Assembly: GCF_045037415.1 (NCBI RefSeq)
Contig: NZ_CP173438.1
Reading direction: 5' to 3' (one strand)
Source of the DNA: Escherichia coli
GTDB lineage: Bacteria; Pseudomonadota; Gammaproteobacteria; Enterobacterales; Enterobacteriaceae
DNA length: 64,000 nucleotides
Program-made: the position numbers and the translations under genes
In this document: positions 5,731-22,903 of the stretch, one piece after another
Numbering within the stretch: the first letter of the stretch is position 1
Layout of the letters: each line of letters opens with the position of its first letter
The notes under the pieces: model-generated
Told to the model about the DNA's origin: nothing
Databases searched by the model: none
What the model saw: only the letters and a program-made list of their open reading frames with translations

Positions 5731-5742
5731 CTTAACCTCCTG

Positions 5743-6912: not shown

Positions 6913-6933
6913 ATATTCCCTCAGTGGTGTGTG

Positions 6934-8352
6934 TTATCCGTGTAATGCTTTATTATTCAAGGCCATTGCTGCTTCGTGGATGACTTCGCTTAATGTCGGA
7001 TGCGCATGGATCGCACAGGCAATATCCTCGCCAGAGGCGCTAAAAGTCATCGCCAGCGCAATTTCATTAATCAGCTCCGATGCCTGCGGGCCAACAATCG
7101 CTCCGCCAAGTACGCGGTCAGTGTGTTTATCACTGTATAACGTGCAACGCCCACCTTCCTGGCCTAATGCTAAGGCGCGACCGTTACCGGCAAACAGAGA
7201 ATTTCCTTTGTTAAAGACTCTGCCAGCGGCTTTCAGTGAGGCCTCGTTTTCCCCTACCCACGCAACTTCCGGTTGGGTGTAAATCACCGAAGGGATCAGC
7301 GCAAAATTAATCGGCTCTACCACCAGTCCGGCAATTTGATCAGCCACCACTACACCTTCAGCCATCGCTTTATGCGCCAGCATCGGCCCTCGCACGACAT
7401 CACCAATTGCCCACAGCCCGGCTTTCCCGGTACGGCATAAGTTATCGACGGCAATACCGCCACGGTTATCGGCTTCAAGACCGAGTTGCACGAGATCGAC
7501 ACCAGAAAGTCGCGGTACACGTCCAATGGCAAGAATTAATTTATCGAAGCGGCTTTCTTCTCGCTTCTCACCCTGCCGCCAGCGCACATGCACACCGTCA
7601 TCCCGTTGTTCAATAGCCTCAATCTCTACTGCCAGTTGCATTTTCATCCCACTGGCAATCATTGCTTTACGGACTTCGTTCGACAGGCGAGCTTCCAGTG
7701 CAGGCAAGAACGTTGGCGCCATCTCCAGCAACGTGACGTCTGAACCAACCCGATTCCACACAGACCCCAGTTCAAGGCCAATCACGCCAGCGCCGATCAC
7801 ACCGAGACGCGGCGGCACTTCGCTCAATGCCAGGGCGCCACGATTGTCGAGGATCTGTTGATTATCAATGGTAACGCCAGGCAGCTGACGCGGCTGAGAA
7901 CCTGTTGCAATCACTACATTACGGGCGTGAAGGTGTTGATCGTTTACACGTAATTGCCAAATCTCATCCTGAGCACATTCTAACGTTGCGAGGCCGCACA
8001 GGTGCTTCACTTTATTTTTCTTAAACAGCAAGCTGATGCCCATTGTCAGGCGGCTTACTATGGCGTCTTTACGTTGAATCATCGCAGCTGCATTGAAAGA
8101 TACGCCGTCAACATTAACGCCATGAATGCTCGCCTCATGCTGCACTTGCGCGTACAGTTCGGAAGATTGCAGCAACGATTTTGACGGAATACAGCCGACA
8201 TTGAGACACGTACCGCCCGGCGAAGGTTCGCCCTGTGCATTAACACCATCATCAATACATACTACGGAAAGCCCATTCTGCGCAGCCCGCAGTGCCGCTA
8301 CGTAACCACCTGGCCCCCCCCCCATAACTGCCACATCAAAAATTGTACTCAT
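6934..8352 (-). CDS. dihydrolipoyl dehydrogenase (E3) paralog
   Basis: 472 aa; FAD GGGPGGY motif, redox-active CxxxxC (GGTCLNVGCIPSK). Confidence 0.85.
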   Translation of the reverse strand: MSTIFDVAVMGGGPGGYVAALRAAQNGLSVVCIDDGVNAQGEPSPGGTCLNVGCIPSKSLLQSSELYAQVQHEASIHGVNVDGVSFNAAAMIQRKDAIVSRLTMGISLLFKKNKVKHLCGLATLECAQDEIWQLRVNDQHLHARNVVIATGSQPRQLPGVTIDNQQILDNRGALALSEVPPRLGVIGAGVIGLELGSVWNRVGSDVTLLEMAPTFLPALEARLSNEVRKAMIASGMKMQLAVEIEAIEQRDDGVHVRWRQGEKREESRFDKLILAIGRVPRLSGVDLVQLGLEADNRGGIAVDNLCRTGKAGLWAIGDVVRGPMLAHKAMAEGVVVADQIAGLVVEPINFALIPSVIYTQPEVAWVGENEASLKAAGRVFNKGNSLFAGNGRALALGQEGGRCTLYSDKHTDRVLGGAIVGPQASELINEIALAMTFSASGEDIACAIHAHPTLSEVIHEAAMALNNKALHG

Positions 8353-8363
8353 CGGCGCCCTCC

Positions 8364-9518
8364 TTAAAGATCCAGCAACAGTTGTTCCGGTGATTCCAGT
8401 AGCTCACGTATTGCCACCAATGTATGCACGGCTTCCTGACCATCGATAATGCGATGGTCATAGCTGAGAGCAAGGTACATCATGGGACGAATAACAACCT
8501 GACCGTTTTCTGCGACCGGGCGCGGCGTGATGGCATGCATCCCAAGAATGGCCGACTGCGGCGGGTTAATGATTGGCGTTGACATCATCGAACCAAAAGT
8601 ACCGCCGTTGGTGATAGAGAACGTGCCGCCCTGTAACGCCTCCAGCGGCAATTTGCCATTGCGTGCCTGTGTGGCGTATTCGGCAATTTGCCGTTCAATT
8701 TCCACCAAAGAGAGTGATTGCGCATTGCGTAACACAGGCACTACCAGGCCGCGGTTGCTGCTCACTGCAATGCCGATATCGCAATAATCACGCCAGATAA
8801 TCTCGTTGCCATCGACGCTGGCATTCACTACAGGGAAGCGCTCCAGCGCCCGGGTAACGGCCTTAACAAAGAAGGACATAAAGCCCAGCTTCACGCCGTG
8901 CTTCTCGGCAAAACGATCTTTCCAGCGGGCGCGTAAGTCCATCACGCTCTGCATGTTTACTTCGTTGAATGTGGTAAGAATGGCGTTATTTTGTTGGGAA
9001 GCCAGCAGACGCTCAGCAATTCGCTGACGTAAGCGCGACATCGGCTCACGACGTTCCTGACGAGCACCCGGTGTCAAGGGTTTAGCTGGCGCGATCTCCG
9101 CCACCCGTTCAGGCTGAATGGCTGGTGCAGGAGTAACGCGCTGCACATCCTCTTTCAGGATACGTCCATTTCTCCCGCTCCCCGCAACGTCAGCAAGTTC
9201 GACACCACTACGCTGTGCCTCCAGCCGTGCGGAAGGCATCGCCAGGGTTTCGGTGACTGGTGTGACGGTTTCTTCTATGACAGCTTGCGGCTTAAGATGC
9301 GCCAACAGTTGCGCGGACGTGACCGTGCTACCTTCGCTGACGATAATATTGCTTAACACGCCATCGTGCGGGGCCGGTATTTCCAGAATGACTTTATCGG
9401 TTTCCAGCTCGGCAATCACATCATCGCGTTTTACGTGCTCGCCTTCTTGTTTACACCAGGTTGTCAGCGTGCCTTCCGTGACAGATTCCGGTAATACAGG
9501 GACAGTAATTTCGATCAT
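8364..9518 (-). CDS. dihydrolipoyllysine succinyltransferase (E2) paralog (SucB-like)
   Basis: 384 aa; lipoyl domain (ETDKV), catalytic domain with DHRxxDG motif. Confidence 0.85.
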
Positions 9519-9550
9519 AAAATGTTCTCCTTATTATTTTTGTGCGCCTT

Positions 9551-12295
9551 TCATGGCTGAATATCTGCAAACGCAGCAGCAAGAAATTCGTCGATTTGTT
9601 GTTTATGTACACGCCCATACCCTGTCGCTGGTGCTGCCGCTGCCGGGCGGCCTGCATACTGCCAGTAAGGAGTGTTAATTTTCAGTGCCGCCAGCTCATG
9701 ACGAATCTGCCGCCACGCGCCCTGGTTTTCTGGCTCTTCCTGCAACCAAATCCATTCGCAGCAGTTCGGCCAACTCGCCAGAACATCATTCAGTTCTGCG
9801 ACCGGGAACGGGTAGAGTTGCTCCAGGCGAACAATCGCTACCTCGTCTTCATGCTCACGCTGCTTACGGGCTTCCAGTACGTCGTAATAGACCTGGCCGC
9901 TACACAAAATAACGCGCTTAACTTTCTGGGACTGATGCAATTGCGGATCGGTGATTACCGGTTTATAAGCGTCATCAGTGAATTCACAAAGCTCGCTCAT
10001 CGCGCCTTTAAACCGAAGTAAACGCTTACTCATCATTATCACTAACGGTTTGCGCATTGGGCGTAATGCCTGACCGCGCAACAAATGGAACATTTGTGCT
10101 GACTCACTGGGCATCACCACCTGCATGTTGTTTTCTGCGCACAGTTGCAGCCAGCGCTCAGGACGTGCGGAAGAGTGCTCCGGCCCTTGTCCGTCATAGC
10201 CATGCGGCAGAAGAATGGTTAAACCGCTATAGCGATCCCACTTGGTTTCGCCAGACGAGATAAATTGGTCAATAGCAACCTGAGCGCCGTTGGCAAAGTC
10301 ACCAAACTGTGCTTCCCAAATAACCAGTTGCTGAGGCGCAGACGTTGAATAGCCATATTCAAAGGCTAAGAGCGCTTCTTCATTAAGCACCGAATCATAA
10401 ACATCGAAAGATGCCTGACCAGCGCGGATATGCTGTAACGGCAGATAACGACGGGCTTCCGTTTGATGATGTACCACTGCATGGCGATGACTGAACGTGC
10501 CACGCCCTGAGTCTTCACCAGAAAGACGCACACCAACACCCGCATCCACAAGCGATGCATAGGCCAGCATTTCAGCCATTCCCCAGTCTACTGGCTGAGT
10601 ACCTGCGGCCATATCCTGGCGTAACGCCAGTTGCCGTTTAATGGTAGGATGTGCGACCACATCGGGTGGCAGTGTAGAAATGATTTCACCATACGCTGCC
10701 AGCTTTTGCCGAGGCAATGCCGTAGATACCGGGGCGCTCCAGTGAGGGTTGGTCAACCCATACCAGTTAGCGCTAAAAGAGTGAATTGCAGGTTTGAGAG
10801 GCTGCGGTTCACGTTTCTGGCAGCTATCCAGCCAGTCGCGATAGCGTGCCGTCATCTCATCTTGTTGCGCCTGAGTTAACAGGCCGCGGCGGGCAAGAGA
10901 TTCACCATAACGGGCGAGCGTACCAGGGTGAGCATCCACTGCCTGATACATTTGTGGCTGGGTAAGACGTGGCTCATCGCTTTCGTTGTGTCCGTGCTTA
11001 CGGAAGCAGCAAATATCGATGATGATGTCACGCCGGAAGGTGTCTCGCCATTCGCACGCCAGTTCCATTACCTGGCAAACAGCGTCAACGTCATCGCCAT
11101 TAACGTGGATAATTGGGGCCGCTACCATTTTGGCAATATCGGTGCAGTACCGTGAAGAACGCATATCCTGCAAGCGGGAAGTGGTGAAGCCAATCTGATT
11201 GTTAATCACCAGATGTAGCGTACCGCCAGTGCCGTAGCCCTGAGTCTGCGATAAGTTAAACGTGGTTTGGTTGACGCCGAGGCCGCCCAACGCGGAATCC
11301 CCATGAATAAGTACGCCCACCACTTTTGCCTGACCATCCTCACCACGGCGTTCCTGCCTGGCTCGCACCTGGCCCAGCACCACCGGATTCACGATCTCCA
11401 GATGTGAGGGGTTATACGCCAGCGCCACATGCAGCGAACCGGCAGGTGTTTCCAGATTGCTGGAATACCCCATGTGGTATTTCACATCGCCTGAACCACT
11501 GCCGATCGTCTGCTTGCCTTCAAACTCAGCAAAAAGCTGTGCCGGGTCTTTATTCAACAGATTAACCAGAACATTAAGTCTTCCCCGGTGCGCCATGCCA
11601 ATGACCATTTCCTCCACACCTTGCGCACGCAGGCGTTTTGTCAGCGTATCGAGCGCCGGGATTGCACTTTCGCCCCCTTCCAGAGAAAACCGTTTCTGCC
11701 CAACATAACGGGTATGCAGATAACGCTCTAACGTCTCTGCCGCCATCAGTTTTTCAAAACGAGCAATACAGGTTTGGGCATCAGCTTGTGGCGCATTGCT
11801 GCTCTCAATCCGTGATAACAACCAGTTGATTTCTTCACGATTTTCCAGATGAGCAAGTTCATAAGCCTGGCTACTGGCCCAGGCTTGCTCCAGCAGGTTA
11901 AGCAGTTGCTTAAGTGGCATTTGCGTGGTGTGTGCGCCAAAGGTGACGCTAAACTCCTGCAACAAGTCTTCTTCGCTTAATCCCCAAAAACCAGGCTGGA
12001 GGGAGGGAACGTCAGCCGGGGGATTCAAACCAAGTGGATCAAGCTTTGCGCGCAGATGCCCCTGCGTGCGCCAGGCATTGATCAGTTGTATTACCGCAGC
12101 CTGTTTTTTTAAGGTCGCACCGCTGATATTGTTATCACCGGATACGCTTTGGACAGTCAGTTCAGGTGAAAGAAAAAAACGCCGCCAGTCTTCCGGGAGT
12201 TGTTCCGGCGTACGCAACCAGGTCTGGTAGTACTCTTCAAGCCAGGTCGCGTTATCTCCACTAAGCAGCGTGCCGGGCGAGGTCATGTTCTCCAT
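9551..12295 (-). CDS. 2-oxoglutarate dehydrogenase E1 paralog (SucA-like)
   Basis: ORF 9551..12418 trimmed to ATG at 12295 (MENMTSPG...) with AGGAGA RBS; >900 aa, SucA-like. Confidence 0.8.
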   Translation of the reverse strand: MENMTSPGTLLSGDNATWLEEYYQTWLRTPEQLPEDWRRFFLSPELTVQSVSGDNNISGATLKKQAAVIQLINAWRTQGHLRAKLDPLGLNPPADVPSLQPGFWGLSEEDLLQEFSVTFGAHTTQMPLKQLLNLLEQAWASSQAYELAHLENREEINWLLSRIESSNAPQADAQTCIARFEKLMAAETLERYLHTRYVGQKRFSLEGGESAIPALDTLTKRLRAQGVEEMVIGMAHRGRLNVLVNLLNKDPAQLFAEFEGKQTIGSGSGDVKYHMGYSSNLETPAGSLHVALAYNPSHLEIVNPVVLGQVRARQERRGEDGQAKVVGVLIHGDSALGGLGVNQTTFNLSQTQGYGTGGTLHLVINNQIGFTTSRLQDMRSSRYCTDIAKMVAAPIIHVNGDDVDAVCQVMELACEWRDTFRRDIIIDICCFRKHGHNESDEPRLTQPQMYQAVDAHPGTLARYGESLARRGLLTQAQQDEMTARYRDWLDSCQKREPQPLKPAIHSFSANWYGLTNPHWSAPVSTALPRQKLAAYGEIISTLPPDVVAHPTIKRQLALRQDMAAGTQPVDWGMAEMLAYASLVDAGVGVRLSGEDSGRGTFSHRHAVVHHQTEARRYLPLQHIRAGQASFDVYDSVLNEEALLAFEYGYSTSAPQQLVIWEAQFGDFANGAQVAIDQFISSGETKWDRYSGLTILLPHGYDGQGPEHSSARPERWLQLCAENNMQVVMPSESAQMFHLLRGQALRPMRKPLVIMMSKRLLRFKGAMSELCEFTDDAYKPVITDPQLHQSQKVKRVILCSGQVYYDVLEARKQREHEDEVAIVRLEQLYPFPVAELNDVLASWPNCCEWIWLQEEPENQGAWRQIRHELAALKINTPYWQYAGRPAAAAPATGYGRVHKQQIDEFLAAAFADIQP

Positions 12296-12330
12296 GTTTT
12301 TCTCCTGATGGTCATAGACAGCTGCATTAC

Positions 12331-12346
12331 TGCACAATCCGTACCA
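12331..12346 (-). promoter_or_regulatory. candidate sigma54 (-24/-12) promoter of the sucA-like operon
   Basis: Minus-strand TGGTACGGATTGTGCA (TGG...GC with canonical spacing) ~36 bp upstream of the start codon. Confidence 0.45.
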
Positions 12347-12440
12347 ACAGTTAAAAACACTAATTTTCAAAAACTTATAGAAAAGAGATGATGTAAAAGT
12401 GGGCGAAAAAAGGGACAAAATAGTAGGGAGTGGCTGGAGT

Positions 12441-12476: not shown

Positions 12477-13670
12477 TCACATCACCGCAGCAAACGCCTT
12501 TGCCACGCGATGCACATTTTGCGTGTTAAGCCCGGCGACACACATGCGACCGCTGGCGATGAGATAGACACCAAATTCTTCACGTAGTTGGTCAACCTGA
12601 GCGGCACTTAAACCGGTATAACTGAACATGCCGCGCTGATTAAGCAGATAATCGAAATTGCGTTCTGGCATCTCTGTGCTCAATACCTTCACCAGTTCCT
12701 GACGCATTGCCAGAATGCGAGTTCGCATCTCTTCTACTTCCACCAGCCAGCTGGCTTTCAATGCCTCGTCATTCAGCACCGCAGCCACCACCTGCGCACC
12801 AAAATTCGGCGGGCTGGAGTAGTTGCGGCGAACAGTTGCTTTCAATTGCCCCAGTACGCGGCCTGCGGCTTCGGCATCTTCACACAGAACAGAAAGTCCG
12901 CCGACGCGCTCGCCGTAAAGGGAGAAAATTTTCGAGAACGAATTGCTCACCAGAGCGGGTAATCCAGCGCTGGCAATGGCGCGAATGGCGTAGGCATCCT
13001 CTTCCATACCGGCACCAAATCCTTGATAGGCAATATCAAGAAATGGGATAAGCTCACGGGCTTTGAGAATTTCAATCACCGCATCCCACTGCTCATTAGT
13101 GAGATCGGCACCCGTTGGGTTGTGGCAACATGGATGCAGCAACACAATACTGCGGGCAGGTAATGTTTTCAGCGTCGCCAACAGGTCATTAAAGCGCACG
13201 CCGTTAGTCGCTTCGTCATACCAGGGGTAAGTACTTACTTCGAATCCAGCCCCGGCGAATATTGCTACGTGGTTTTCCCAGGTAGGATCGCTGACCCAGA
13301 CGCTTGATTCCGGGAAGTAGCGTTTCAGGAAATCTGCGCCCACTTTCAATGCCCCTGAGCCGCCAAGGGTTTGAATGGTTGCTACGCGCTGTTGTTGCAG
13401 TACCGGATGGTCCGCACCAAACAGCAGCGGCGCAATGGCATGGCGATAGCTGTTAAGCCCTTCCATCGGTAAATAAAGCGAAGCACCATGAGGCTGCGCA
13501 TTCAGGCGCGCTTCCGCATCCGCCACGGCTTTCAGTTGTGGAATAATTCCGTCTTCGTTGTAGTACAGACCGATACTTAAATTCACTTTGTCGCTGCGAG
13601 GGTCTTCTTTAAAACGCTCCATAAGCGTAAGAATCGGGTCGCCAGCGTAGGCGTCAACTTTTTGAAACAC
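12477..13670 (-). CDS. tyrB: aromatic amino acid aminotransferase
   Basis: TyrB-like 397 aa from GTG start at 13670 ([13 protein letters not shown]...); ORF-finder N-terminal extension removed. Confidence 0.9.
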
Positions 13671-13751
13671 GCGATGGTTCTCCAGGTTTACGGGCAGGTG
13701 GTTAAACCACAATAAACCGGAAGAAGGCGAAGATCGAGAGGATGTTCAAAG

Positions 13752-14780
13752 TCAGTCGGGAAGTTGGCGAAGAATTTGCTCCACTCGCTCTTGCAGTGGC
13801 CCCGAAACCGAAAGATAAGGAATGTTCCTGCGCGACAATTCCTGTTCATACCACACCTGTTGCCGTGCGCGAAATACCTCTCCTTGCCGGGTGCCATCCT
13901 GCACGAAGGGAAATTCTGCGCCGCAAAGCACTACCAGAGAGTATTCCCGCTCCGCCAGTTGGTGAAGTTCTTGCGGAGCATGACCATATTGATCAAGGGC
14001 ATAGAATAAGGTCGTGAGTGGCGACGTGTCACATATAAGATAGTGATTAGCTTCTGCTTGTTGTTCCCGGCGTACCTGTTCGCAGGCGATATGCAACAAA
14101 TCATCCGCAGTTAAGATACCGTTTTTTTCTTCCCAATAGTCGCGGCCAAATTCAGCGACATACACCGTATCAAGCACGCCCGCCAGCGCTTTTGAAAGCG
14201 TGCTTTTACCGGTAGATTCGCCACCAAGCAGACAGATACGGCGAACGAAACTGTAATAAACATCATTCGCCAACATGTAGCGATAGCGGTGAACATCGGA
14301 ACGAATAAGCGTTCCCGAAGGCGCTTCATCGCCAACTGGGCGCGCCATTCGAACGTGTTCAACGGGTTGGGCAAAACGCCGCGCCAGCACGTTAGCAAAG
14401 CCATCGCCATAGTCTTCTGCAGTAAATACAGCGTGTGGGCGGCAACGTAATATCTGCAAGCATAGCGTCGCCACATAATGACGGTGGATGTCGGCATCAG
14501 CATTGTTATGCGGGATAGCAGGTAAGTTATAACGCGCAACAAGCTCTGGCGTCAGTACCAAAAACGTCGCTTGCGGGAAGCGCACTTGCAGCCACGTCAG
14601 GCGCTTTTCAGGTTCACAGTCAGGCATTTCCGGCACGGAATAACTGATGATGAACAGTTCTTCACATTGCGCCAGTGCGGTATTGATCAACTTTTCATGA
14701 CCACAATGCAAAGGCGCGAATTTACCAACCACCAGACCCGTTGCAAAAGGCTTCATGATGTTTGCAACTCTTTGCGCCAT
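13752..14780 (-). CDS. NadR-like bifunctional NMN adenylyltransferase / ribosylnicotinamide kinase lacking the N-terminal HTH
   Basis: HxGH nucleotidyltransferase motif (HCGH), Walker A GGESTGKST; 342 aa; alternative start MKPF at 14756 abuts the pnuC-like stop. Confidence 0.65.
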   Translation of the reverse strand: MAQRVANIMKPFATGLVVGKFAPLHCGHEKLINTALAQCEELFIISYSVPEMPDCEPEKRLTWLQVRFPQATFLVLTPELVARYNLPAIPHNNADADIHRHYVATLCLQILRCRPHAVFTAEDYGDGFANVLARRFAQPVEHVRMARPVGDEAPSGTLIRSDVHRYRYMLANDVYYSFVRRICLLGGESTGKSTLSKALAGVLDTVYVAEFGRDYWEEKNGILTADDLLHIACEQVRREQQAEANHYLICDTSPLTTLFYALDQYGHAPQELHQLAEREYSLVVLCGAEFPFVQDGTRQGEVFRARQQVWYEQELSRRNIPYLSVSGPLQERVEQILRQLPD

Positions 14781-15310
14781 TGATACAAACCATACCAGGC
14801 GTTAATCCAGAACAGGAAATATAAGCCAGCGGTCAGGTTTAAACCGCGCGTCATATACAGTGGCACCGCCAGGGTATTCACCGCTAACCAGACGTACCAG
14901 TTTTCGATACGTCTTCCCATCAACATGAATTGTGCCAGAACGCTGAAGGTCAAAATCAACGAATCCAGCCAGGGTGCCCAAGCATTGGTAAAGGTGTGGA
15001 GTAAAAAGCCGTAACCGCCTGCCACGACGACAGCACAGAGCAACAAAAGGAAAAAGTGACTGGCTTGCGTTCGGCGCACCGGCAAGATGTCGCCACCCTG
15101 ACCTTTCAGCCAGTGGATCCAGCCAGTGATGCTGGTCACGATGAAGAATAACTGGAGCGTAACGTCGGCATAGAGTTGCACGGACCAAAAAACCCAGCCG
15201 TACAATATGCTGCCAATTATGCCGATCCACCATGTATGCACATTGTTTCTGGCAGCCAGCCAGACGGAAACCGCGTATGCCAGACACGCGGCGATTTCTG
15301 AATAAGACAT
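14753..15310 (-). CDS. PnuC-family nicotinamide riboside transporter-like membrane protein (short form)
   Basis: 185 aa, Trp-rich TM segments typical of PnuC; 22 bp after alr stop. Confidence 0.6.
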   Translation of the reverse strand: MSYSEIAACLAYAVSVWLAARNNVHTWWIGIIGSILYGWVFWSVQLYADVTLQLFFIVTSITGWIHWLKGQGGDILPVRRTQASHFFLLLLCAVVVAGGYGFLLHTFTNAWAPWLDSLILTFSVLAQFMLMGRRIENWYVWLAVNTLAVPLYMTRGLNLTAGLYFLFWINAWYGLYQWRKELQTS

Positions 15311-15332
15311 TGTCCCTCCCTGGAGACGAATA

Positions 15333-16412
15333 TTAATCCACGTATTTCATCGCGACTCTTGAAGTCAGGCGCGTAATAAGTTCGTAAGCACTTACCTTCG
15401 TCATTTCAGCGATACGTTCTACGGGCAAACCTTCGCCCCATAAAATGACCGGGGCCCCGGCTTTATCCTGCGCCTGTGGACCTAAGTCTACGCAGATCAT
15501 ATCCATCGCCACGCGCCCGACAATCGGCACTTCGCGACCGTTCACCAGCACTGGCGTACCGGACGGCGCGGCGCGCGGATAACCATCGCCATAGCCCATC
15601 GCGACTACGCCAAGACGAGTATCACGTTCGCTTACCCAGGTTCCACCATAACCGACAGGCTCTCCGGCTTTATGCTCACGCACGGCAATCAGGCTGGAGG
15701 TTAGCGACATCACTGGCTGACAGCCAAAATCGGCACCGGTGGAGCGATCTTCCAGCGGAGATACGCCGTAAAGAATGATGCCCGGGCGCACCCAGTCAAA
15801 ATGCGACTGTGGCCAGAGTAAAATGCCACCCGACGCGGCAATGGAACGTTGACCAGGCTTGCCTTCGCAAAAGGTATTAAAGATAGCGAGTTGCTTCTCG
15901 GTTGCGCCACATTTTGGTTCATCCGCGCGCGCAAAATGGCTGACGATATTCACCGGCTGACGAACGTTTTTGCACTGGGTCAGACGATGATAAAACGCCT
16001 CAGCCTGTTCCGGCCTTACGCCCAGACGGTGCATACCGGTATCGAGTTTCATCCAGACGGTAACCGGCTCGTCCAGGTTAGCCTCTTCCAGCGCAGCAAG
16101 CTGTTCTTCGTTATGCACGGCGGTATGAAAATGTTGCGCAGAAATCGTCGGTAGATCTCTGGCATCAAAAAAGCCTTCGAGTAAAAGTACAGGTTTGGTG
16201 ATTCCCCCCGCACGCAGTCGCAGAGCTTCTTCGAGACGGGCTACGCCAAAGGCGTCAGCATCGGGGAGCGTTCGCGCGGTCTCAAGAAGACCGTGACCAT
16301 AAGCGTTCGCTTTCACCACCGCAACCATTTTACTGGCAGGTGCCAGTTCACGAAGACGTTGCAGGTTGTGTCGCAGAGCGCGGCGGTTAATCACAACAGT
16401 TGCCGCTTGCAT
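15333..16412 (-). CDS. alr: alanine racemase (biosynthetic)
   Basis: 359 aa; PLP-lysine region [11 protein letters not shown]. Confidence 0.92.
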
Positions 16413-17952: not shown

Positions 17953-18987
17953 TTAACGCCCCCGCTTTCCGGTGGAAGCGCGAATTTGCAGGGTCGGGCG
18001 ATAGATGTAATGGCTGAGCGGTGCGTCTGGTTGCGCAATACGCCGTAAAATTTGCTGCGCCGCCTGTTTCCCCAGAGCCAATGGTTCTACCGCAATTGTG
18101 GTTAACGGCGGGTTACTGTAAGCACAAGCCGCCACGCCATCATTACCAATCAACGAAATATCTTCCCCGGCAAATAATCCTCTTTCGCCTAGTGCCGACT
18201 CCGCGCCAAAAGCCATTAAATCGTTATAACAAATCACCGCTGTGGGTGGCGAAGGCATATCCAACAGCTGTTGCATCAACTGGTAGCCGTTGGCCTGAGT
18301 CGGTTCAGCACGCAGCGAAAAAGCATCAGTACTCCACGGCTGTAAACCATGGTGATTCATCGCCTCAAGGTATCCCTGATAACGCATATGGTGCGTAAGA
18401 CCACCAATAAACACGATATCTCTGTGCCCTTGTTGAATGAGATATTCCGTCGCTTCCCGTACACCTGCGTGGCTGTCCACGCCAACGTAATCGACGGGCA
18501 ATTGTTGCCAATCCAGAGGGCGCATCGTGATTAATAAGGGTGTGGAACTGTTGGCATAACGCTGTAAATCGGCTTCTGAGGTACTGTTCACTGGACAGAG
18601 GACAATGCCCGCGACGTGGTGTTCCAGCAAGGTATCAAGCACCTGTTTTTGCCGGTCACTACGCTGGGAGGTATTGGACATCACGGTGATAAAACCGTGC
18701 TCCGCCAGCGTCATCTCAAGACCCATAGTAAATTCAGCGAAGAAAGGATTTATCAAATCGTCAATGACTACGCCGATAGTTAGCGATTTTTGCGAACGCA
18801 GATTGGCAGCAAAACGGTTATAGACATAGCCTAATTGTTCAATGGCTTGCTGGACTTTTTGTTGCGTCTCTTTTTTGATAAGTGAACTGTCGTTGAGAAC
18901 CAGCGATACAGTCGATTTCGAAACGCCAGCCGCACGCGCAACATCGGTTAATGTTACCCGCTTTCTTCCTGTATCCGACTTCGCCAT
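17953..18987 (-). CDS. LacI-family transcriptional regulator
   Basis: N-terminal HTH (VTLTDVARAAGVSKSTVSLVLN) + periplasmic-binding-protein-like domain; start ATG 18987; divergent from the 19243 operon. Confidence 0.8.
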   Translation of the reverse strand: MAKSDTGRKRVTLTDVARAAGVSKSTVSLVLNDSSLIKKETQQKVQQAIEQLGYVYNRFAANLRSQKSLTIGVVIDDLINPFFAEFTMGLEMTLAEHGFITVMSNTSQRSDRQKQVLDTLLEHHVAGIVLCPVNSTSEADLQRYANSSTPLLITMRPLDWQQLPVDYVGVDSHAGVREATEYLIQQGHRDIVFIGGLTHHMRYQGYLEAMNHHGLQPWSTDAFSLRAEPTQANGYQLMQQLLDMPSPPTAVICYNDLMAFGAESALGERGLFAGEDISLIGNDGVAACAYSNPPLTTIAVEPLALGKQAAQQILRRIAQPDAPLSHYIYRPTLQIRASTGKRGR

Positions 18988-19047
18988 GCCTGCTCCAAAC
19001 CCCCATAAGATCAAGGCAATTACTTTATCATAATCTCCTTTTACTCA

Positions 19048-19074
19048 TGCGATCCGTTAACGCAAGGGATCGCA
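19048..19074. promoter_or_regulatory. candidate operator palindrome in regulator/operon intergenic region
   Basis: TGCGATCC-N11-GGATCGCA inverted repeat in the AT-rich divergent promoter region. Confidence 0.3.
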
Positions 19075-19242
19075 GGAGATCGTCGTTTCGATCACAGATT
19101 CGCACTTCCCTTGTTGTGTTTTTTACACCCTAATCGTACAAATTACGCATAAATTAGATCGTTCCAATTAATTTATGAAAATTATCATATTGTTTTAAAT
19201 GTATATTTTTAATTATTTTTATATCGAAACAAGGAAATTATT

Positions 19243-20814
19243 ATGTGCTCTGTACGCACGATCACTGCACCGGAAGCTGCAGATTTGATTGTTGATGGCG
19301 CAGTTGTCACCGTCTCCTCCTCCAGTGGAATGGGGTGTCCGGATGCGGTGCTGGCAGCAATAGGTGAACGCTTTCAACGTGCCGGACATCCGCAAAACAT
19401 CACCTCCATCCACCCTATCGCCGCTGGTGATATGTATGGCGTAAAAGGCATCGATCATCTGGCGCAACCGGGCTTACTGGCAAAAGTGATCGCTGGCTCC
19501 TACCCCTCCGGTCCATCATCAATGACGCCTCCGTTAATCTGGCAAATGATCAATGACAACGCGATCCCCGCCTGGAATCTGCCTTCCGGGATCTTATTTG
19601 ATATGCACCGGGAAGCGGCGGCTCATCGTCCTGGCGTGCTGACACAAACAGGCATGGATACCTATGTGGATCCCCTGTTGCAGGGCGGTGCAATGAATGA
19701 AAAAGCGGCGCAACAATCTCTGGTTGAACGTGTTCGATTTGCTAACGACGACTGGCTGTTTTTCCCCAGTATCGTGCCGCAGGTGGCGATCATTCGCGCT
19801 ACCACTGCCGATGAACGCGGCAACCTGACTTATGAACATGAAGGGGCTTATCTGGGGCCACTGGAACAGGCTACTGCCGTTCGCAATAATGGTGGCATCA
19901 TAATTGCGCAAGTAAAACGACAGGTTGCCGCCGGAAGTCTGAAACCAAAAGAGGTGCGTATTCCGGGTGTACTGGTGGATTACATCGTGATTGCGCCGGA
20001 ACAAACACAAACGACACAAACGCAATATGAACCTGCCATTTCCGGCGAAATCAGTCGTCCGCTGTCAGCCTTTCGTTATATGGAACATGGCCCGGCGCGA
20101 GTTATTGCCCAGCGAGTCGCGCAAGAACTACAAAGTGGAGATGCGGTAAATATTGGCTTTGGTATTTCTGCCAACGTACCACGCATTTTACTGGAACAAG
20201 GTCGCCACGGTGACGTCACCTGGCTGCTGGAACAGGGCGCGATTGGCGGAGTTCCACTGCTGGAATTTCAGTTCGGTTGTGCCTCTAATGCAGAAGCATT
20301 TTTGCCCTCTCCCCAGCAGTTCACCTATTTCCAGGGTGGTGGTTTTGATCTCACTCTGATGTCGTTTTTACAAATCGGCGCAGATGGCTCAGTGAACGTC
20401 TCACATCTCCCCGCTCGTCCACATGTCACTGCCGGATGCGGTGGATTTATTGATATCACCTCACATGCGAAACGCATTATTTTCTCTGGCTTTTTCAATG
20501 CCGGTGCCCAACTGCAACTGGAAGAGGGTCAGCTGCGTATCATTAAAGAAGGCAAAGCCAAAAAACTGGTACAGGACGTCGCCCACGTGACGTTCTCCGG
20601 CAAACGCGCAATAAGACTCGGGCAACAAGTACAGTACATTACTGAACGCTGCGTTCTGGAATTAACCCCAGACGGGCTACTGGTCACAGAAATTGCCCCA
20701 GGTATTGATCCTGAACGCGACATTCTCGCCCAAAGCGATGCCCCACTCCGTCTGGCAGACGATCTCAAACTAATGAATCCCCTCTATTTTCAACAAGGAA
20801 GTCACCATGAATAA
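19243..20814 (+). CDS. family I CoA-transferase (acyl-CoA:acetate / propionate CoA-transferase-like, fused alpha-beta)
   Basis: 523 aa; AAGGAA RBS; resembles YdiF/Pct-type transferases. Confidence 0.65.
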   Translation: MCSVRTITAPEAADLIVDGAVVTVSSSSGMGCPDAVLAAIGERFQRAGHPQNITSIHPIAAGDMYGVKGIDHLAQPGLLAKVIAGSYPSGPSSMTPPLIWQMINDNAIPAWNLPSGILFDMHREAAAHRPGVLTQTGMDTYVDPLLQGGAMNEKAAQQSLVERVRFANDDWLFFPSIVPQVAIIRATTADERGNLTYEHEGAYLGPLEQATAVRNNGGIIIAQVKRQVAAGSLKPKEVRIPGVLVDYIVIAPEQTQTTQTQYEPAISGEISRPLSAFRYMEHGPARVIAQRVAQELQSGDAVNIGFGISANVPRILLEQGRHGDVTWLLEQGAIGGVPLLEFQFGCASNAEAFLPSPQQFTYFQGGGFDLTLMSFLQIGADGSVNVSHLPARPHVTAGCGGFIDITSHAKRIIFSGFFNAGAQLQLEEGQLRIIKEGKAKKLVQDVAHVTFSGKRAIRLGQQVQYITERCVLELTPDGLLVTEIAPGIDPERDILAQSDAPLRLADDLKLMNPLYFQQGSHHE

Positions 20815-21586
20815 CGGCACCATTGACCTCCAGCGCAACGGTTTCATTGCCACTTTGGTGATTAATCGCCCGGCGAAACTCAACGCATTAACCCCAGAGA
20901 TGCTCGAACAACTGCTGGCGCATTGCCACACGTTGGAAACTGATTCGGAGATCCGCGTAGTACTGCTGACCAGTGCCAGTGAAAAAGCGTTTTGTGTCGG
21001 CGCGGATATTCATCGCTGGACCTCTCTTTCTGCACTCGATATGTGGCGCAACTGGATCCGCCGCGGTCATCAGGCATTTGATGCTCTGGCACAACTGCCA
21101 CAGCCCGTAATCGCCCTGTTGCACGGCCTGGCTTATGGCGGTGGTCTGGAACTGGCTGCTACCGCCGATATCCGTATTTGTAGCGCCGAAGCACAAATGG
21201 CACTACCAGAAACCGGGCTGGCGACAGTGCCTGGCTGGTCAGGAACGCAGCGGCTGACGGCACTGCTTGGGCGCTCACTGGTGAAAGAACTGGTATTTAC
21301 CGGTGAACCACTGGATGCACAGCGGGCACTGTCCTGCGGGCTGGTGAATCGCGTTGTCGCCAGGGAGGCGTTACACGACGCCGGACTGCAACTGGCACAA
21401 CGTATCGCCCAGCGTGCTCCCGTTGCAGTGCAGATCGCCAAGCAGGTTATTGATGCCGGAGAAGGTATTGCTGTGGCCTCGACGCTTGAAGCACTGGCTG
21501 GCGCTTTTTCCGCCACGACTGAAGATGCTCATGAAGGCAGTCAGGCATTTACTGAGAAGCGTCAACCGCACTTTCAGGCACGCTGA
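20807..21586 (+). CDS. enoyl-CoA hydratase/isomerase (crotonase) family protein
   Basis: 259 aa; crotonase oxyanion-hole regions (FCVGADI, GGGLELA); 8-bp overlap with upstream gene. Confidence 0.8.
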   Translation: MNNGTIDLQRNGFIATLVINRPAKLNALTPEMLEQLLAHCHTLETDSEIRVVLLTSASEKAFCVGADIHRWTSLSALDMWRNWIRRGHQAFDALAQLPQPVIALLHGLAYGGGLELAATADIRICSAEAQMALPETGLATVPGWSGTQRLTALLGRSLVKELVFTGEPLDAQRALSCGLVNRVVAREALHDAGLQLAQRIAQRAPVAVQIAKQVIDAGEGIAVASTLEALAGAFSATTEDAHEGSQAFTEKRQPHFQAR

Positions 21587-21612
21587 TCGCCTCTTACAAG
21601 GAAAGAAAGATA

Positions 21613-22893
21613 ATGAATATGACAACCTCTGTTCCCCAAACGCCTTCTTTATTTCGGCGAATAATGACAAAACTCGCGGCCTTTGCACCTGGCATCTTTC
21701 TTATTGGCTACAGCATCGGAACAGGCAGCATCACCACTATGGCTAAAGCAGGTGCTAACTATGGTGTCTCGCTCATGTGGGCCGTGGCGCTTTCTTGCAT
21801 TGTTACCTGGTTTTTAATCCGTATTTATGGTCGTTATGCTTCCGTCACTGGTGAACGCGCGTTGACTGCATTTCGTCGCCATATCCATCCCGGCGTTGCG
21901 ATGTTGTTTCTGATCGGGTTAACCGTTGCCGTGAGCGGTTCCATTATGGGGGTAATGGGTATTCTGGCGGATGTAATGGCAACATGGTCCACGACCTGGT
22001 TTAGTGGCGGTATCTCAGCTCTCGCCTGGGCTATCGCGATGGTCATTATGATTAACGTGATGCTCTGGACCAACAGCAACGCCGGGTTCGACAAAATCCT
22101 CTCCGCGCTGGTTGGCATTATGGGGCTGGCGTTTGTGATTAATTTTTTCATTATGATGCCGCCGGTCGCAGATCTGCTGGCCGGATTTATTCCGTCTGTT
22201 CCCGATCCTGTCGCTGGCGATAACAGTACGCCATTTCTGATAATTTCTGGCATGGTGGGTACCACCGTAGCACCAGCAATGTTTCTTATGCGCACGACCC
22301 TGGTAAAAAGTAATGGTTGGGGTGTGGACAATTTGCCTCATCAAAATCGTGATGCCATTGTCAGTGCAGGAATGATGTTCATCATCAGTGCGGCGGTGAT
22401 GGCTGCGGCTGCGGGTACGTTGTACCAAACTGGCACAGGTTTAAATAATGCCTCGCAAATGGTCATTATTCTCGAACCTATTGCTGGCTCAGCTGCCGTG
22501 GGGCTCTTTGTTATTGGTATTGTTGCAGCCGGGCTTTCCAGCCAGTTCCCAAATTTGCTGTTAACGCCCTGGCTGCTGGCTGACTGGCGTGATACCAGCA
22601 ACGAAGTTAGCCCAGGTTACCGTATCCTGATGACGGTTATGTCTCTGCTTTGTCTGGTTGTGCCGCTGTTCCACGCACGCCCGGTATTGGTGATGATTGC
22701 CAGCCAGGCCTTTAACGCCATTATTCTGCCGCTGACTGTTTTATGTATGTTCTGGCTGGCGAACAAGCCTTCGTTAATGGGCAAATATCGTTGCTCACGC
22801 TGGGAAAACGTCATGTTTATTGCCATAAGCGTATTTACGCTAATCATGGGCTATATGGCAATGAGCGGCTTAATCGAAAGTCTGATGAAATAG
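21613..22893 (+). CDS. NRAMP-fold transporter homolog lacking canonical metal-binding motifs
   Basis: 426 aa polytopic; TM1 region aligns to NRAMP GPGxL...DPGN...QAGA but reads APGIFL...GTGS...AKAGA. Confidence 0.55.
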   Translation: MNMTTSVPQTPSLFRRIMTKLAAFAPGIFLIGYSIGTGSITTMAKAGANYGVSLMWAVALSCIVTWFLIRIYGRYASVTGERALTAFRRHIHPGVAMLFLIGLTVAVSGSIMGVMGILADVMATWSTTWFSGGISALAWAIAMVIMINVMLWTNSNAGFDKILSALVGIMGLAFVINFFIMMPPVADLLAGFIPSVPDPVAGDNSTPFLIISGMVGTTVAPAMFLMRTTLVKSNGWGVDNLPHQNRDAIVSAGMMFIISAAVMAAAAGTLYQTGTGLNNASQMVIILEPIAGSAAVGLFVIGIVAAGLSSQFPNLLLTPWLLADWRDTSNEVSPGYRILMTVMSLLCLVVPLFHARPVLVMIASQAFNAIILPLTVLCMFWLANKPSLMGKYRCSRWENVMFIAISVFTLIMGYMAMSGLIESLMK

Positions 22894-22903
22894 GTGGGAC
22901 GCA

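What the first reader, a model, noticed from the sequence alone, without database searches (positions are those of the whole stretch)
13752..15310. Extra pnuC-like / HTH-less nadR-like pair embedded between alr and tyrB
In the K-12 arrangement I recall, alr and tyrB are adjacent. Here two genes sit between them: a short (185 aa) PnuC-family transporter and a 342-aa protein with an NMN adenylyltransferase HxGH motif and a ribosylnicotinamide-kinase Walker A motif but no N-terminal DNA-binding domain. The nadR-like start abuts or overlaps the pnuC-like stop and the pair lies only 22 bp after alr, suggesting co-transcription with dnaB-alr. This looks like a self-contained nicotinamide riboside uptake and NAD salvage module additional to the canonical pnuC and nadR loci.
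Basis: partly seen in the sequence, partly recalled or inferred. Interest (0 to 1): 0.55.

Follow-up and report, generated by a model that had tools for sequence, protein, structure and literature searches.

The report
Second nicotinamide riboside salvage gene pair
About one in six E. coli strains carries, between alr and tyrB, an extra two-gene unit predicted to import nicotinamide riboside and turn it into NAD. It is real and under selection, but it is an ordinary member of a well-known salvage system and probably an old gene pair that K-12 lost.

Summary
On the minus strand a 185-aa Pnu-family transporter gene (14753..15310) starts 22 bp after alr. A NadR-like gene without a DNA-binding domain follows (13752..14756, 334 aa from the conserved start; 342 aa for the longest ORF) and overlaps it by ATGA. 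The transporter has the full PF04973 domain, passes the TIGR01528 cutoff, keeps the WxxWxxxN motif and models as the 7-helix PnuC fold. The enzyme keeps the HxGH, SGTLIR, Walker A, Walker B and lid motifs and models as a two-domain NadR.

The window is E. coli. The pair is in 867-868 of 5,426 complete genomes. K-12 and 4,533 other genomes carry a 173-bp REP-containing spacer instead. Canonical nadR and pnuC are present in about all genomes, so the pair is additional. Its dN/dS of 0.06-0.22 shows purifying selection.

The same pair sits at the same site in Enterobacter, Kosakonia, Atlantibacter and Scandinavium. It is therefore probably ancestral and lost in K-12-like lineages, not inserted. 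It also occurs as a coupled pair elsewhere in Serratia, Chania and Ectopseudomonas.

The best reading is a PnuC/NadR-type nicotinamide riboside salvage module with no NadR-repressor site nearby. I found no experimental study of it. It is a new member of a known kind, of low to moderate interest.

The parts
15333..16412 (-). alr (alanine racemase), the upstream gene and probable promoter donor
   Evidence: ORF. RefSeq annotates it as alr in an identical strain. It is 99.4% identical in amino acids to K-12 Alr.
15311..15332 (-). 22-bp alr/pnuC-like spacer with the Shine-Dalgarno sequence GGGAGGG; no promoter or terminator
   Evidence: Sequence. The promoter/terminator scan found nothing convincing. 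Rfam found nothing. Spacers in four other genera are 15-22 bp.
14753..15310 (-). pnuC-like gene: 185-aa Pnu-family transporter with a 7-TM core and no extra N-terminal helix
   Evidence: PF04973 matches full length at E=3e-49. TIGR01528 scores 76.6 against a cutoff of 42.45. The AF2 model has pLDDT 85.6 and 7 helices. Foldseek gives TM 0.83 to PnuC 4QTN, the only significant hit. It is 24% identical to K-12 PnuC.
14876..14899 (-). WYVWLAVN, the Pnu-family WxxW(x)3D/N ligand-binding motif of TM6 (N variant, as in N. mucosa and K-12 PnuC)
   Evidence: Read from the sequence and from the alignments. The motif is defined in PMC5749112.
14753..14756 (-). ATGA overlap: the nadR-like start codon overlaps the pnuC-like stop codon (translational coupling)
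   Evidence: Sequence. The same 4-bp overlap occurs in Enterobacter, Atlantibacter, Scandinavium and Chania.
13752..14756 (-). nadR-like gene: 334 aa, an NMN adenylyltransferase-like domain plus a ribosylnicotinamide kinase-like P-loop domain, no HTH (the longest ORF extends to 14780, 342 aa)
   Evidence: TIGR01526 gives E=5e-41 but 140.9 bits, below the cutoff of 341. PF13521 gives E=4e-31. PDB sequence hits are 9x6f, 8x7f, 1lw7 and 6gye. The AF2 model has pLDDT 92.7. The top Foldseek hits are all NadR structures. RefSeq names it 'AAA family ATPase'.
14697..14708 (-). HCGH, the HxGH nucleotidyltransferase motif (H17-H20)
   Evidence: Invariant in alignments A1 and A3, including K-12 NadR.
14301..14318 (-). 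SGTLIR, the second nucleotidyltransferase motif (ISSTxxR-like; S147-R152)
   Evidence: It aligns with ISGAQIR of NadR. R152 is invariant.
14199..14225 (-). GGESTGKST, Walker A of the kinase domain (G178-T186)
   Evidence: Invariant in A1 and A3. Checked codon by codon.
14022..14033 (-). CDTS, Walker B region (D243 invariant)
   Evidence: The Walker A/B and lid concept for NadR comes from PMC7221760.
13887..13898 (-). DGTR, lid-region motif (D287, G288 and R290 invariant, also in K-12 NadR)
13749..15331 (.). The 1583-bp segment present here and absent from K-12, which has an unrelated 173-bp REP-containing spacer instead
   Evidence: BLAST breakpoints pair K-12 L002 4863 with window 15332 and K-12 5037 with window 13748. 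The K-12-type spacer is in 4533 genomes. The pair is in 867-868 genomes.
13671..13751 (-). 81-bp nadR-like/tyrB intergenic region. Its tyrB-proximal 78 bp (13671..13748) are the tyrB leader shared with K-12 and conserved across genera. No intrinsic terminator is predicted.
   Evidence: fold z-score -0.58.
12477..13670 (-). tyrB (aromatic amino acid transaminase, GTG start), the downstream flank

Best explanation
The two genes form a nicotinamide riboside (NR) salvage module of the PnuC/NadR type ('salvage pathway III').

Proposed mechanism:
1. The 185-aa Pnu-family protein lets NR diffuse across the inner membrane.
2. The C-terminal P-loop domain of the 334-aa NadR-like enzyme phosphorylates NR to NMN, which traps it in the cell.
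3. The N-terminal HxGH nucleotidyltransferase domain adenylylates NMN to NAD.

Expression: the enzyme has no HTH domain and no NadR operator lies nearby. The module is therefore probably expressed by read-through from alr, with the enzyme translationally coupled to the transporter through the ATGA overlap. That would put it outside the NAD-responsive NadR regulon that controls the canonical nadA-pnuC operon.

Origin: it is a distant paralogue of the core pnuC and nadR genes (24% and 30% identity), not a recent copy. It is most likely an old resident of the alr-tyrB site in Enterobacteriaceae. About 16% of E. coli complete genomes keep it, including ST131/O25:H4, O2:K1:H7 and ATCC 25922-type strains. 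K-12-like lineages lost it and carry a REP-containing spacer in its place.

Shown: the gene structures, family membership, motifs, folds, distribution, synteny and purifying selection.
Inferred: the substrate, both enzymatic activities, co-transcription with alr, and the direction of the gain/loss event.
For: Transporter:
- PF04973 matches full length at E=3e-49.
- TIGR01528 scores above its curated cutoff.
- The WxxWxxxN motif and the gate tryptophans are conserved (motif definition in PMC5749112).
- The model has 7 helices and TM 0.83 to PnuC 4QTN.

Enzyme:
- HxGH, SGTLIR, Walker A, Walker B and DGTR are invariant across the subfamily and shared with K-12 NadR.
- Sequence hits to NadR/NMNAT structures span both domains.
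- The model has pLDDT 92.7, and the only full-length structural matches are NadR 8x7f, 1lw7 and 6gye.

Precedent:
- The L. lactis enzyme, which also lacks an HTH, is a characterised bifunctional NR kinase/NMNAT (PMC7221760).
- The HTH is restricted to enterobacterial NadR, and PnuC+NadR defines salvage III, with pnuC-nadR operons in other bacteria (PMC2330246).

The pairing is conserved:
- The short pnuC and the nadR-like gene are adjacent with a 1-4 bp overlap or gap in Enterobacter, Atlantibacter, Kosakonia, Scandinavium, Chania, Serratia, Ectopseudomonas and 'bacterium B14'.
- The two protein families have matching taxonomic spreads.

The genes are functional: dN/dS is 0.06-0.22 for pnuC-like and 0.09-0.16 for nadR-like within Escherichia.

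The pair is additional: canonical nadR and pnuC are in about all E. coli genomes.

No NadR box lies within 13.7-16.5 kb of the window. There is no riboswitch or other RNA family and no terminator in the 22-bp spacer.

The ancestral reading rests on several points:
- The locus order is the same in five genera.
- GC content is 0.49-0.525, like the flanks.
- Phage homologues are only about 30% identical, and the plasmid hits are chromosome fragments.
- Identity to other genera falls in step with that of the flanking genes.
Against: - No activity or transport has been measured for any member of this subfamily that I could find.
- The enzyme scores well below NCBI's trusted cutoffs for NadR-type NMNAT (140.9 against 341) and for NadR (92.8 against 201). 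PGAP names it only 'AAA family ATPase'.
- Identity to characterised proteins is 20-30%. The TM1-TM2 region of the transporter differs (NVHTWW against KISNYF/L in NR-transporting PnuCs). A shifted substrate is therefore not excluded.
- No NAD-related regulatory site was found upstream of the pair in Chania, Serratia or E. coli, so no regulon link supports the assignment.
- Why a cell with core PnuC/NadR would keep a second route is unexplained.
- Synonymous divergence between E. coli alleles of the pair (dS 0.25-0.33) is 3-4 times that of the flanks. Simple vertical descent cannot be the whole story; recombination with divergent Escherichia lineages probably contributed.
- I could not examine pair-less relatives such as Salmonella, Citrobacter and Klebsiella, so the number and direction of gain/loss events is inferred.
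Confidence: 0.7

Rival explanations
1. The architecture is the same but the substrate differs. The Pnu-family channel imports another pyridine or vitamin nucleoside (nicotinic acid riboside, reduced NR, an NR analogue, or an unrelated vitamin as with PnuT/PnuX). The two-domain enzyme then phosphorylates and adenylylates that compound.
For: - The enzyme falls below the curated cutoffs for TIGR01526 and NF005988.
- Identity to characterised PnuC and NadR is only 20-30%.
- The subfamily has its own invariant residues: ARNxxHTW in the transporter, and four invariant Cys (C31, C99, C242, C278) in the enzyme that K-12 NadR lacks.
- The Pnu family is known to include thiamine and riboflavin transporters (PMC5749112).
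- Redundancy with core PnuC/NadR would be easier to explain if the substrate differed.
Against: - The partner enzyme belongs to the NadR family in sequence and fold across both domains. By my own recollection (no tool result), PnuT pairs with a thiamine pyrophosphokinase and PnuX with riboflavin genes.
- The transporter passes the TIGR01528 PnuC cutoff.
- It carries the N variant of the WxxW(x)3D/N motif, as the two NR-transporting PnuCs compared here do; S. woodyi PnuT carries D at that position (D166).
- No riboswitch or other regulatory element points to another vitamin.
Confidence: 0.13
2. The pair is a recently acquired islet, inserted horizontally between alr and tyrB in the ExPEC/B2 lineage. 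This is what the first reader's wording implies.
For: - The pair is absent from K-12 and from 4533 of 5426 genomes.
- It lies next to two other accessory blocks: the kgu island (PMC3694859) and the LacI/CoA-transferase block.
- The indel boundaries hug the two genes tightly.
- dS of the pair between E. coli alleles exceeds that of the flanks, which is compatible with import from elsewhere.
Against: - The insertion point and spacing are identical in Enterobacter, Kosakonia, Atlantibacter and Scandinavium.
- No integrase, tRNA, repeat or mobile-element homology was found, and phage and plasmid collections hold no close relatives.
- GC content equals that of the host.
- The pair occurs without the neighbouring islands in strain CI5.
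- Two alleles differing by about 9% exist inside E. coli.
Confidence: 0.12
3. The genes are decaying remnants with no current function.
For: - Truncated database entries exist (P0048, P0050: a -1 shift in the A7 run at 14122..14128).
- The pair has been lost from most E. coli.
Against: - dN/dS is 0.06-0.22.
- Both genes were listed as named CDSs in all 39 full-length sampled hits out of 868; the table does not flag pseudogenes.
- All catalytic motifs are invariant over genera.
- The truncated representative comes from an assembly in which dnaB, alr and tyrB are also fragmented, so it is a sequencing error.
Confidence: 0.05

Closest known systems
Canonical enterobacterial NR salvage: PnuC (b0751, in the nadA-pnuC operon) plus trifunctional NadR (b4390)
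   Same: Same two protein families and the same predicted chemistry: NR uptake, NR kinase, NMN adenylyltransferase. The HxGH, SGxxIR, Walker A, Walker B, DGxR and WxxWxxxN motifs are shared.
   Different: - Identity is only 24% (transporter) and 30% (enzyme).
- The enzyme has no N-terminal HTH repressor domain.
- The transporter lacks the roughly 20-aa N-terminal extension and the 24-aa TM4-TM5 insertion of K-12 PnuC.
- The two genes are adjacent and overlapping rather than at separate loci.
- No NadR operator lies nearby.
- Both proteins fail the NCBIfam cutoffs for the enterobacterial subfamilies NF011926 and NF005988.
Bifunctional NadR enzymes characterised as two-domain NMNAT/RNK proteins: Lactococcus lactis NadR (PDB 6GYE/6GYF/6GZO) and Haemophilus influenzae NadR (crystallised construct 1LW7)
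   Same: Two-domain NMNAT plus RNK architecture of about 340-380 aa. L. lactis NadR has no DNA-binding domain. These are structural matches to the model and sequence matches. They work with a PnuC transporter by metabolic trapping (PMC7221760).
   Different: - Identity is 20-23%.
- Full-length H. influenzae NadR does carry an N-terminal HTH (residues 1-59; PMC7221760).
- In those organisms the route is a main or sole NAD source; here it is accessory to complete de novo and salvage pathways.
- This subfamily has four invariant cysteines of unknown role.
Neisseria mucosa PnuC (PDB 4QTN)
   Same: The 3+1+3 seven-helix core (TM-score 0.83) and the WxxWxxxN motif.
   Different: The N. mucosa protein has an extra N-terminal helix that drives trimerisation (PMC5749112). 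The 185-aa protein lacks it and is therefore predicted to be monomeric. Identity is 23%.
Other Pnu subfamilies: PnuT (thiamine) and PnuX/RibM (riboflavin)
   Same: Same transporter family and the same facilitated-diffusion plus metabolic-trapping logic (PMC5749112).
   Different: The partner gene here is NadR-like, not a thiamine or riboflavin enzyme. The motif carries N rather than the D of PnuT. No vitamin riboswitch is present.
Phage auxiliary metabolic genes: PnuC-like (phrog_1880) and NadR-like NMNAT (phrog_3462)
   Same: Same two families, in the form without an HTH.
   Different: Identity is only about 30%. The E. coli pair is chromosomal, syntenic across genera and not inside a prophage.

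Membership tests
Pnu transporter family (Pfam PF04973) / PnuC (TIGR01528) | Full-length match to the family profile above the trusted cutoff | tested here: met
   PF04973 E=3.2e-49, model positions 1-175 of 175. TIGR01528 76.6 bits against a cutoff of 42.45.
Pnu transporter family (Pfam PF04973) / PnuC (TIGR01528) | Seven-transmembrane-helix core with the PnuC (SWEET-like 3+1+3) fold | tested here: met
   The AF2 model has 7 helices and pLDDT 85.6. Foldseek gives TM 0.83 and E=1.6e-7 to 4QTN, the only significant hit.
Pnu transporter family (Pfam PF04973) / PnuC (TIGR01528) | WxxW(x)3D/N ligand-binding motif in TM6, and gate tryptophans at the ends of TM3 and TM7 | tested here: met
   WYVWLAVN at residues 138-145. 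W64/W67 and W178 are conserved. Motif definition from PMC5749112.
Pnu transporter family (Pfam PF04973) / PnuC (TIGR01528) | Transports nicotinamide riboside | not testable with these tools
   Needs uptake or counterflow assays. Inferred only from the NadR-like partner and from motif conservation.
Enterobacterial PnuC orthologue group (NCBIfam NF011926 / PRK15397) | Score above the curated cutoff (335 bits) | tested here: not met
   60.3 bits and 24% identity to K-12 PnuC. It is a distant paralogue, not an orthologue of core PnuC.
NadR-type NMN adenylyltransferase / ribosylnicotinamide kinase (TIGR01526) | N-terminal nucleotidyltransferase domain with the HxGH and SxxxxR motifs | tested here: met
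   PLHCGH and SGTLIR. H17, G19, H20 and R152 are invariant.
NadR-type NMN adenylyltransferase / ribosylnicotinamide kinase (TIGR01526) | C-terminal P-loop kinase domain with Walker A, Walker B and lid | tested here: met
   GGESTGKST, CDTS (D243) and DGTR (R290) are invariant. PF13521 E=3.9e-31.
NadR-type NMN adenylyltransferase / ribosylnicotinamide kinase (TIGR01526) | Two-domain fold superposable on solved NadR structures | tested here: met
   Model pLDDT 92.7. 8x7f E=1.5e-19 with TM 0.74; 1lw7 and 6gye with TM 0.62-0.64. No other full-length matches.
NadR-type NMN adenylyltransferase / ribosylnicotinamide kinase (TIGR01526) | Score above the curated equivalog cutoff (341 bits) | tested here: not met
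   140.9 bits. I therefore file it as a divergent subfamily of the NadR family, not as an equivalog.
NadR-type NMN adenylyltransferase / ribosylnicotinamide kinase (TIGR01526) | NR kinase and NMN adenylyltransferase activities | not testable with these tools
   Needs enzyme assays.
Trifunctional NadR repressor (NCBIfam NF005988) | N-terminal helix-turn-helix DNA-binding domain (about 60 aa) | tested here: not met
   The alignment starts at K-12 NadR residue 62 or so. The upstream DNA is the pnuC-like coding region. NF005988 scores 92.8 bits against a cutoff of 201.
PnuC-NadR 'salvage III' operon | Conserved adjacency and co-occurrence of a Pnu transporter gene and a NadR-family gene | tested here: met
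   The genes are adjacent or overlapping in all 9 genera examined. The two families have parallel taxonomic distributions. The operon type is described in PMC2330246.
NadR regulon | NadR operator TGTTTA-N6-TAAACA upstream | tested here: not met
   No site with 3 or fewer mismatches between 13.7 and 16.5 kb of the window. Only chance-level 3-mismatch hits in Chania and Serratia.
Anti-phage defence systems (PADLOC) | Match to a defence-system protein model | tested here: not met
   No hit for the transporter. For the enzyme, only a P-loop-level hit at E=0.0095.

The most novel reading that the evidence does not exclude
The pair is not simply redundant. It may be a constitutive route, independent of the NadR repressor and co-transcribed with the housekeeping gene alr. 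That would let carrier lineages (ST131, ST95-type and other extraintestinal strains) keep scavenging NR when the canonical nadA-pnuC operon is shut off by NAD. Alternatively, it may handle a different pyridine nucleoside, such as nicotinic acid riboside or reduced NR.

In the ancestral gene order it lies one gene away from aphA, which encodes the periplasmic phosphatase that generates NR from NMN. That hints at an old, loosely clustered NMN/NR assimilation locus. The four subfamily-specific invariant cysteines could add redox or metal control.
Probability: 0.15. Interest if true: 0.45.

Novelty: new member of a known kind. Interest (0 to 1): 0.25.

Why it matters
If the prediction holds, about one in six sequenced E. 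coli has a second route from nicotinamide riboside to NAD. That group includes the pandemic ST131 clone and other extraintestinal pathogens.

The second route would not be controlled by the NadR repressor, because it is unlinked to the NadR regulon. This bears on three things:
- NAD economy in host niches;
- the interpretation of pnuC and nadR mutant phenotypes outside K-12;
- strain engineering for NMN or NR production.

It is also a clear example of a K-12 'reference' arrangement being the derived, deleted state. It does not challenge current understanding of NAD salvage.

Tried and rejected
- **Regulatory sites.** I looked for a NadR operator near the pair in E. coli, Chania and Serratia and found only chance-level matches.
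- **Structured RNAs.** I looked for a riboswitch or other structured RNA upstream of the pair, in the window and in four loci where the pair has its own upstream region. Nothing relevant turned up.
- **Promoters and terminators.** Consensus scans around alr/pnuC-like and nadR-like/tyrB gave promoter counts at background and no convincing terminator. The 111-nt fold has a z-score of -0.58.
- **Deletion scar.** I searched K-12's 173-bp spacer for relics of the pair. No similarity was found even at word size 7.
- **Pseudogenisation.** I suspected it from the truncated database proteins (P0048, P0050; A7 frameshift). I rejected it because the source assembly has many other split genes.
- **Mobility.** Phage and plasmid searches gave only distant homologues or mis-binned chromosome pieces. 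PADLOC was negative.
- **Mapping pair-less relatives.** A TyrB homologue search was wasted: all 120 listed hits were E. coli. The genome-contig scan returned only 10 loci because its peptide patterns were too specific.
- **Literature.** Searches for pnuC with ExPEC or phylogroup, pnuC with tyrB and alr, CFT073 tags c5028-c5031 and PDB code 9X6F found no study of this pair. One further search failed on a too-short term.
- **Papers not held.** The PnuC structure paper and Kurnasov 2002 are not in the library. I therefore could not check residue-level substrate contacts.
Full report
**1. The observation**

- The first, 14753..15310, encodes 185 aa.
- The second has a longest ORF of 13752..14780 (342 aa). 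Its conserved start is the ATG at 14756 (334 aa). RefSeq uses that start in a strain that is 100% identical over this region, and the homologues in every other genus begin there too.
- With that start, the start codon and the upstream stop codon form an ATGA overlap.
- The first gene begins 22 bp after the alr stop codon, behind a GGGAGGG ribosome-binding site.

K-12 MG1655 has alr and tyrB adjacent, separated by 252 bp.

**2. What the proteins are**

The 185-aa protein:
- It matches the Pnu transporter domain PF04973 end to end (E=3e-49).
- It passes NCBI's cutoff for TIGR01528, PnuC (76.6 against 42.45 bits).
- It fails the model for the enterobacterial PnuC orthologue group (60 against 335 bits) and is only 24% identical to K-12 PnuC.
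- Its AlphaFold model (pLDDT 85.6) has seven helices. Its only significant structural match is the nicotinamide riboside transporter PnuC of Neisseria mucosa, 4QTN, at TM-score 0.83.
- It carries the family's TM6 ligand-binding motif WxxW(x)3D/N as WYVWLAVN, the N variant, as in N. mucosa and K-12 PnuC (motif from PMC5749112).
- It lacks the extra N-terminal helix that makes the Neisseria protein trimeric, so it is probably a monomer, like other short Pnu proteins described in that paper.

The 334-aa protein:
- It aligns over both of its domains with NadR-family proteins of known structure: 9x6f, 8x7f, 1lw7 and 6gye.
- Its model (pLDDT 92.7) matches only NadR structures over its full length.
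- Alignment with K-12 NadR begins at about residue 62 of NadR, so the helix-turn-helix repressor domain is absent.
- The catalytic signatures of both enzymatic domains are invariant across 34 subfamily members and shared with K-12 NadR: HxGH, SGTLIR, Walker A GGESTGKST, Walker B D243 and the lid DGTR.
- It scores below the curated cutoffs of TIGR01526 (140.9 against 341) and NF005988 (92.8 against 201). This explains the uninformative RefSeq name 'AAA family ATPase'.
- I therefore treat it as a divergent subfamily within the NadR family, not as an equivalog.

**3. Where else the pair occurs**

The window is E. coli. It is 100% identical to many ST131/O25:H4-type chromosomes.
- The pair is present in 868 of 5,426 complete E. 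coli genomes, at 91-100% nucleotide identity. It lies on the chromosome in 867 and is at the alr-tyrB site in the four carrier strains examined.
- K-12's 173-bp spacer, which contains a REP element, occupies the site in 4,533 genomes. The locus is therefore essentially bi-allelic.
- The breakpoints hug the genes. Homology with K-12 stops one base after the alr stop codon and resumes four bases after the nadR-like stop codon. The 78-bp tyrB leader is left intact.
- That leader is conserved in other genera that carry the pair.
- Canonical nadR is in 5,424 of 5,426 genomes and canonical pnuC in 5,424 of 5,426. In carrier strains the pair is genuinely a second set.

**4. Direction of the event**

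The same order, dnaB-alr-pnuC-like-nadR-like-tyrB, occurs in four other genera: Enterobacter (hormaechei, cloacae, genomosp. O), Kosakonia (two species), Atlantibacter hermannii and Scandinavium goeteborgense. In each the spacer after alr is 15-22 bp, and all but Kosakonia also show the 4-bp overlap.

Protein identities to the E. coli pair fall in step with those of the flanking genes:

| Genus | Alr | TyrB | Transporter | Enzyme |
|---|---|---|---|---|
| Enterobacter | 88-89% | 86-87% | 78-79% | 69-72% |
| Kosakonia | 82% | 85-86% | 70-71% | 67% |
| Atlantibacter | 85% | 86% | 74% | 58% |

Further points bear on the origin:
- The GC content of the pair (0.49-0.525) matches its surroundings.
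- No mobile-element gene adjoins it. Phage homologues are only about 30% identical, and the plasmid hits are chromosome fragments.
- The pair is independent of the two accessory blocks beside it in this window. Strain CI5 has the pair but neither the alpha-ketoglutarate island nor the LacI/CoA-transferase block.

The most economical reading is that the pair is old at this site in Enterobacteriaceae and was deleted in K-12-like E. coli. 'Extra genes embedded in the K-12 arrangement' has the polarity backwards.

Two caveats apply.
- I could not inspect pair-less relatives such as Salmonella or Klebsiella (searches did not deliver them).
- The two E. coli alleles of the pair differ by dS 0.25-0.33 while their flanks differ by 0.07-0.09. 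Recombination with divergent Escherichia lineages has probably also shaped the distribution.

Outside this family the same coupled pair occurs at unrelated loci in Chania, Serratia, 'Enterobacteriaceae bacterium B14' and Ectopseudomonas. The two protein families show the same taxonomic spread, which also includes Andreprevotia, Chitinimonas and Metapseudomonas. A full-library search finds 226 clusters at 50% identity with E<=1e-30. Almost all are 320-360 aa and align from their first residues, so they lack an HTH.

**5. Are the genes alive?**

Within Escherichia, dN/dS is 0.06-0.22 for the transporter gene and 0.09-0.16 for the enzyme gene. Some database proteins end in 'EEKTVS*', which corresponds exactly to a -1 slip in the A7 run at 14122..14128. 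However, the assembly behind the representative has dnaB, alr and tyrB broken as well, so this is sequencing error rather than decay.

**6. How it most likely works**

By homology and conserved gene pairing, this is the PnuC/NadR route that Rodionov and colleagues call salvage III (PMC2330246):
1. NR crosses the membrane by facilitated diffusion through the Pnu protein.
2. The P-loop domain phosphorylates it to NMN, trapping it in the cell.
3. The HxGH domain adenylylates NMN to NAD.

The same paper states that the HTH domain is restricted to enterobacterial NadR, so the form without an HTH is the common one. The Lactococcus lactis enzyme is a biochemically and structurally characterised example (PMC7221760).

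What is particular here is the expression context. There is no NadR operator within 13.7-16.5 kb of the window, no riboswitch and no terminator or above-background promoter between alr and the transporter gene. The tight spacing after alr is conserved across five genera.

I infer read-through transcription from alr and translational coupling of the enzyme to the transporter. That would make this a route not governed by NAD-bound NadR. None of these functional steps has been measured. I put 0.7 on this account.

**7. Rivals**

- A shifted substrate (0.13) is suggested by the sub-threshold family scores, the 20-30% identity to characterised proteins, a different TM1-TM2 segment (NVHTWW against KISNYF/L) and four subfamily-specific invariant cysteines. 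Against it stand the NadR-family partner and the PnuC-type motif.
- A recent horizontal insertion (0.12) is contradicted by the cross-genus synteny.
- Decay (0.05) is contradicted by dN/dS.

**8. Comparison with the known, and novelty**

The module works like, and belongs to, the Pnu transporter and NadR enzyme families. It is not an orthologue of the core E. coli PnuC or NadR and is not a trifunctional repressor.

RefSeq already annotates it (pnuC, plus 'AAA family ATPase'). I found no paper that mentions it. That includes the studies of the adjacent kgu island, which place that island between tyrB and aphA without noting the pair on the other side of tyrB (PMC3694859 and PMC8716947; searches).

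It is a new, uncharacterised member of a known kind. Interest is low to moderate (0.25). It matters to people working on NAD metabolism in non-K-12 E. coli and as a tidy example of the reference strain being the derived state. It would not surprise a specialist.

Noticed in passing
window 1..12418: Downstream of tyrB lies the KguS/KguR alpha-ketoglutarate utilisation island. It holds sucA/odhB/lpdA/sucCD paralogues, a DASS transporter, an Ldh-family oxidoreductase and a sigma-54 regulator. The island is known from UPEC CFT073 (c5032-c5041), where it is inserted between tyrB and aphA (PMC3694859). Its presence is independent of the pnuC/nadR-like pair: strain CI5 has the pair but not the island.
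   Followed up: partly
window 17953..24940: A second accessory block lies between dnaB and qorA. It encodes a LacI-family regulator, an acyl-CoA:acetate/3-ketoacid CoA-transferase, an enoyl-CoA hydratase, an Nramp transporter and an FAD-dependent oxidoreductase. It is absent from K-12 and CI5, where dnaB and qorA are adjacent.
   Followed up: no
window 14122..14128: The nadR-like gene contains an A7 homopolymer on the coding strand (…GAA GAA AAA AAC…). A -1 slip gives exactly the truncated 'EEKTVS*' proteins found in databases (P0048, P0050). The representative assembly is riddled with split genes, so these look like sequencing errors rather than phase variation.
   Followed up: yes
window 13752..14756 (residues C31, C99, C242, C278): Four cysteines are invariant across 34 members of the NadR-like subfamily that lacks the HTH, but are not present in K-12 NadR. 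They may form a metal site or redox switch, or may simply be buried core residues. Distances in the model could not be read.
   Followed up: no
L003 4346..9260; L026 2345..7064: In Enterobacter and Scandinavium the order is alr, pnuC-like, nadR-like, tyrB, aphA. AphA is the periplasmic phosphatase required for NMN assimilation in Salmonella (Grose 2005, cited in PMC7221760). The NR uptake pair therefore lies one gene from the enzyme that makes NR from NMN. In this window the kgu island separates them.
   Followed up: partly
L002 4864..5036 (K-12) against window 13749..15331: The alr-tyrB site is essentially bi-allelic in E. coli. 4,533 genomes carry a 173-bp REP-containing spacer and 867 carry the gene pair; about 26 have something else. 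The spacer shows no residual similarity to the pair.
   Followed up: yes
L021, L022 (strains CI5, GABEEC10) against window 13752..16412: The E. coli alleles of the pair are deeply split: dS is 0.25-0.33, against 0.07-0.09 for the flanks in CI5. In GABEEC10 the alr allele itself is very divergent (dS 0.47), and a 561-bp hypothetical ORF sits between alr and dnaB. Both points suggest recombination with divergent Escherichia lineages at this locus.
   Followed up: partly
window 13671..13748: The 78-bp tyrB leader is shared with K-12. Blocks such as CTCGATCTTC, CCGGTTTATTGTG and CGTAAACCTGGAGAAC are conserved in Enterobacter, Atlantibacter and Kosakonia. No sigma-70 consensus promoter or terminator was detected there, so where tyrB transcription starts in carrier strains, and whether nadR-like reads through into tyrB, is open.
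   Followed up: partly
L005 11835..13041: In Ectopseudomonas hydrolytica, about 5 kb from the pair, a DpnII/MboI-family gene lies next to a Piwi-domain (prokaryotic Argonaute) gene. This is unrelated to the finding.
   Followed up: no
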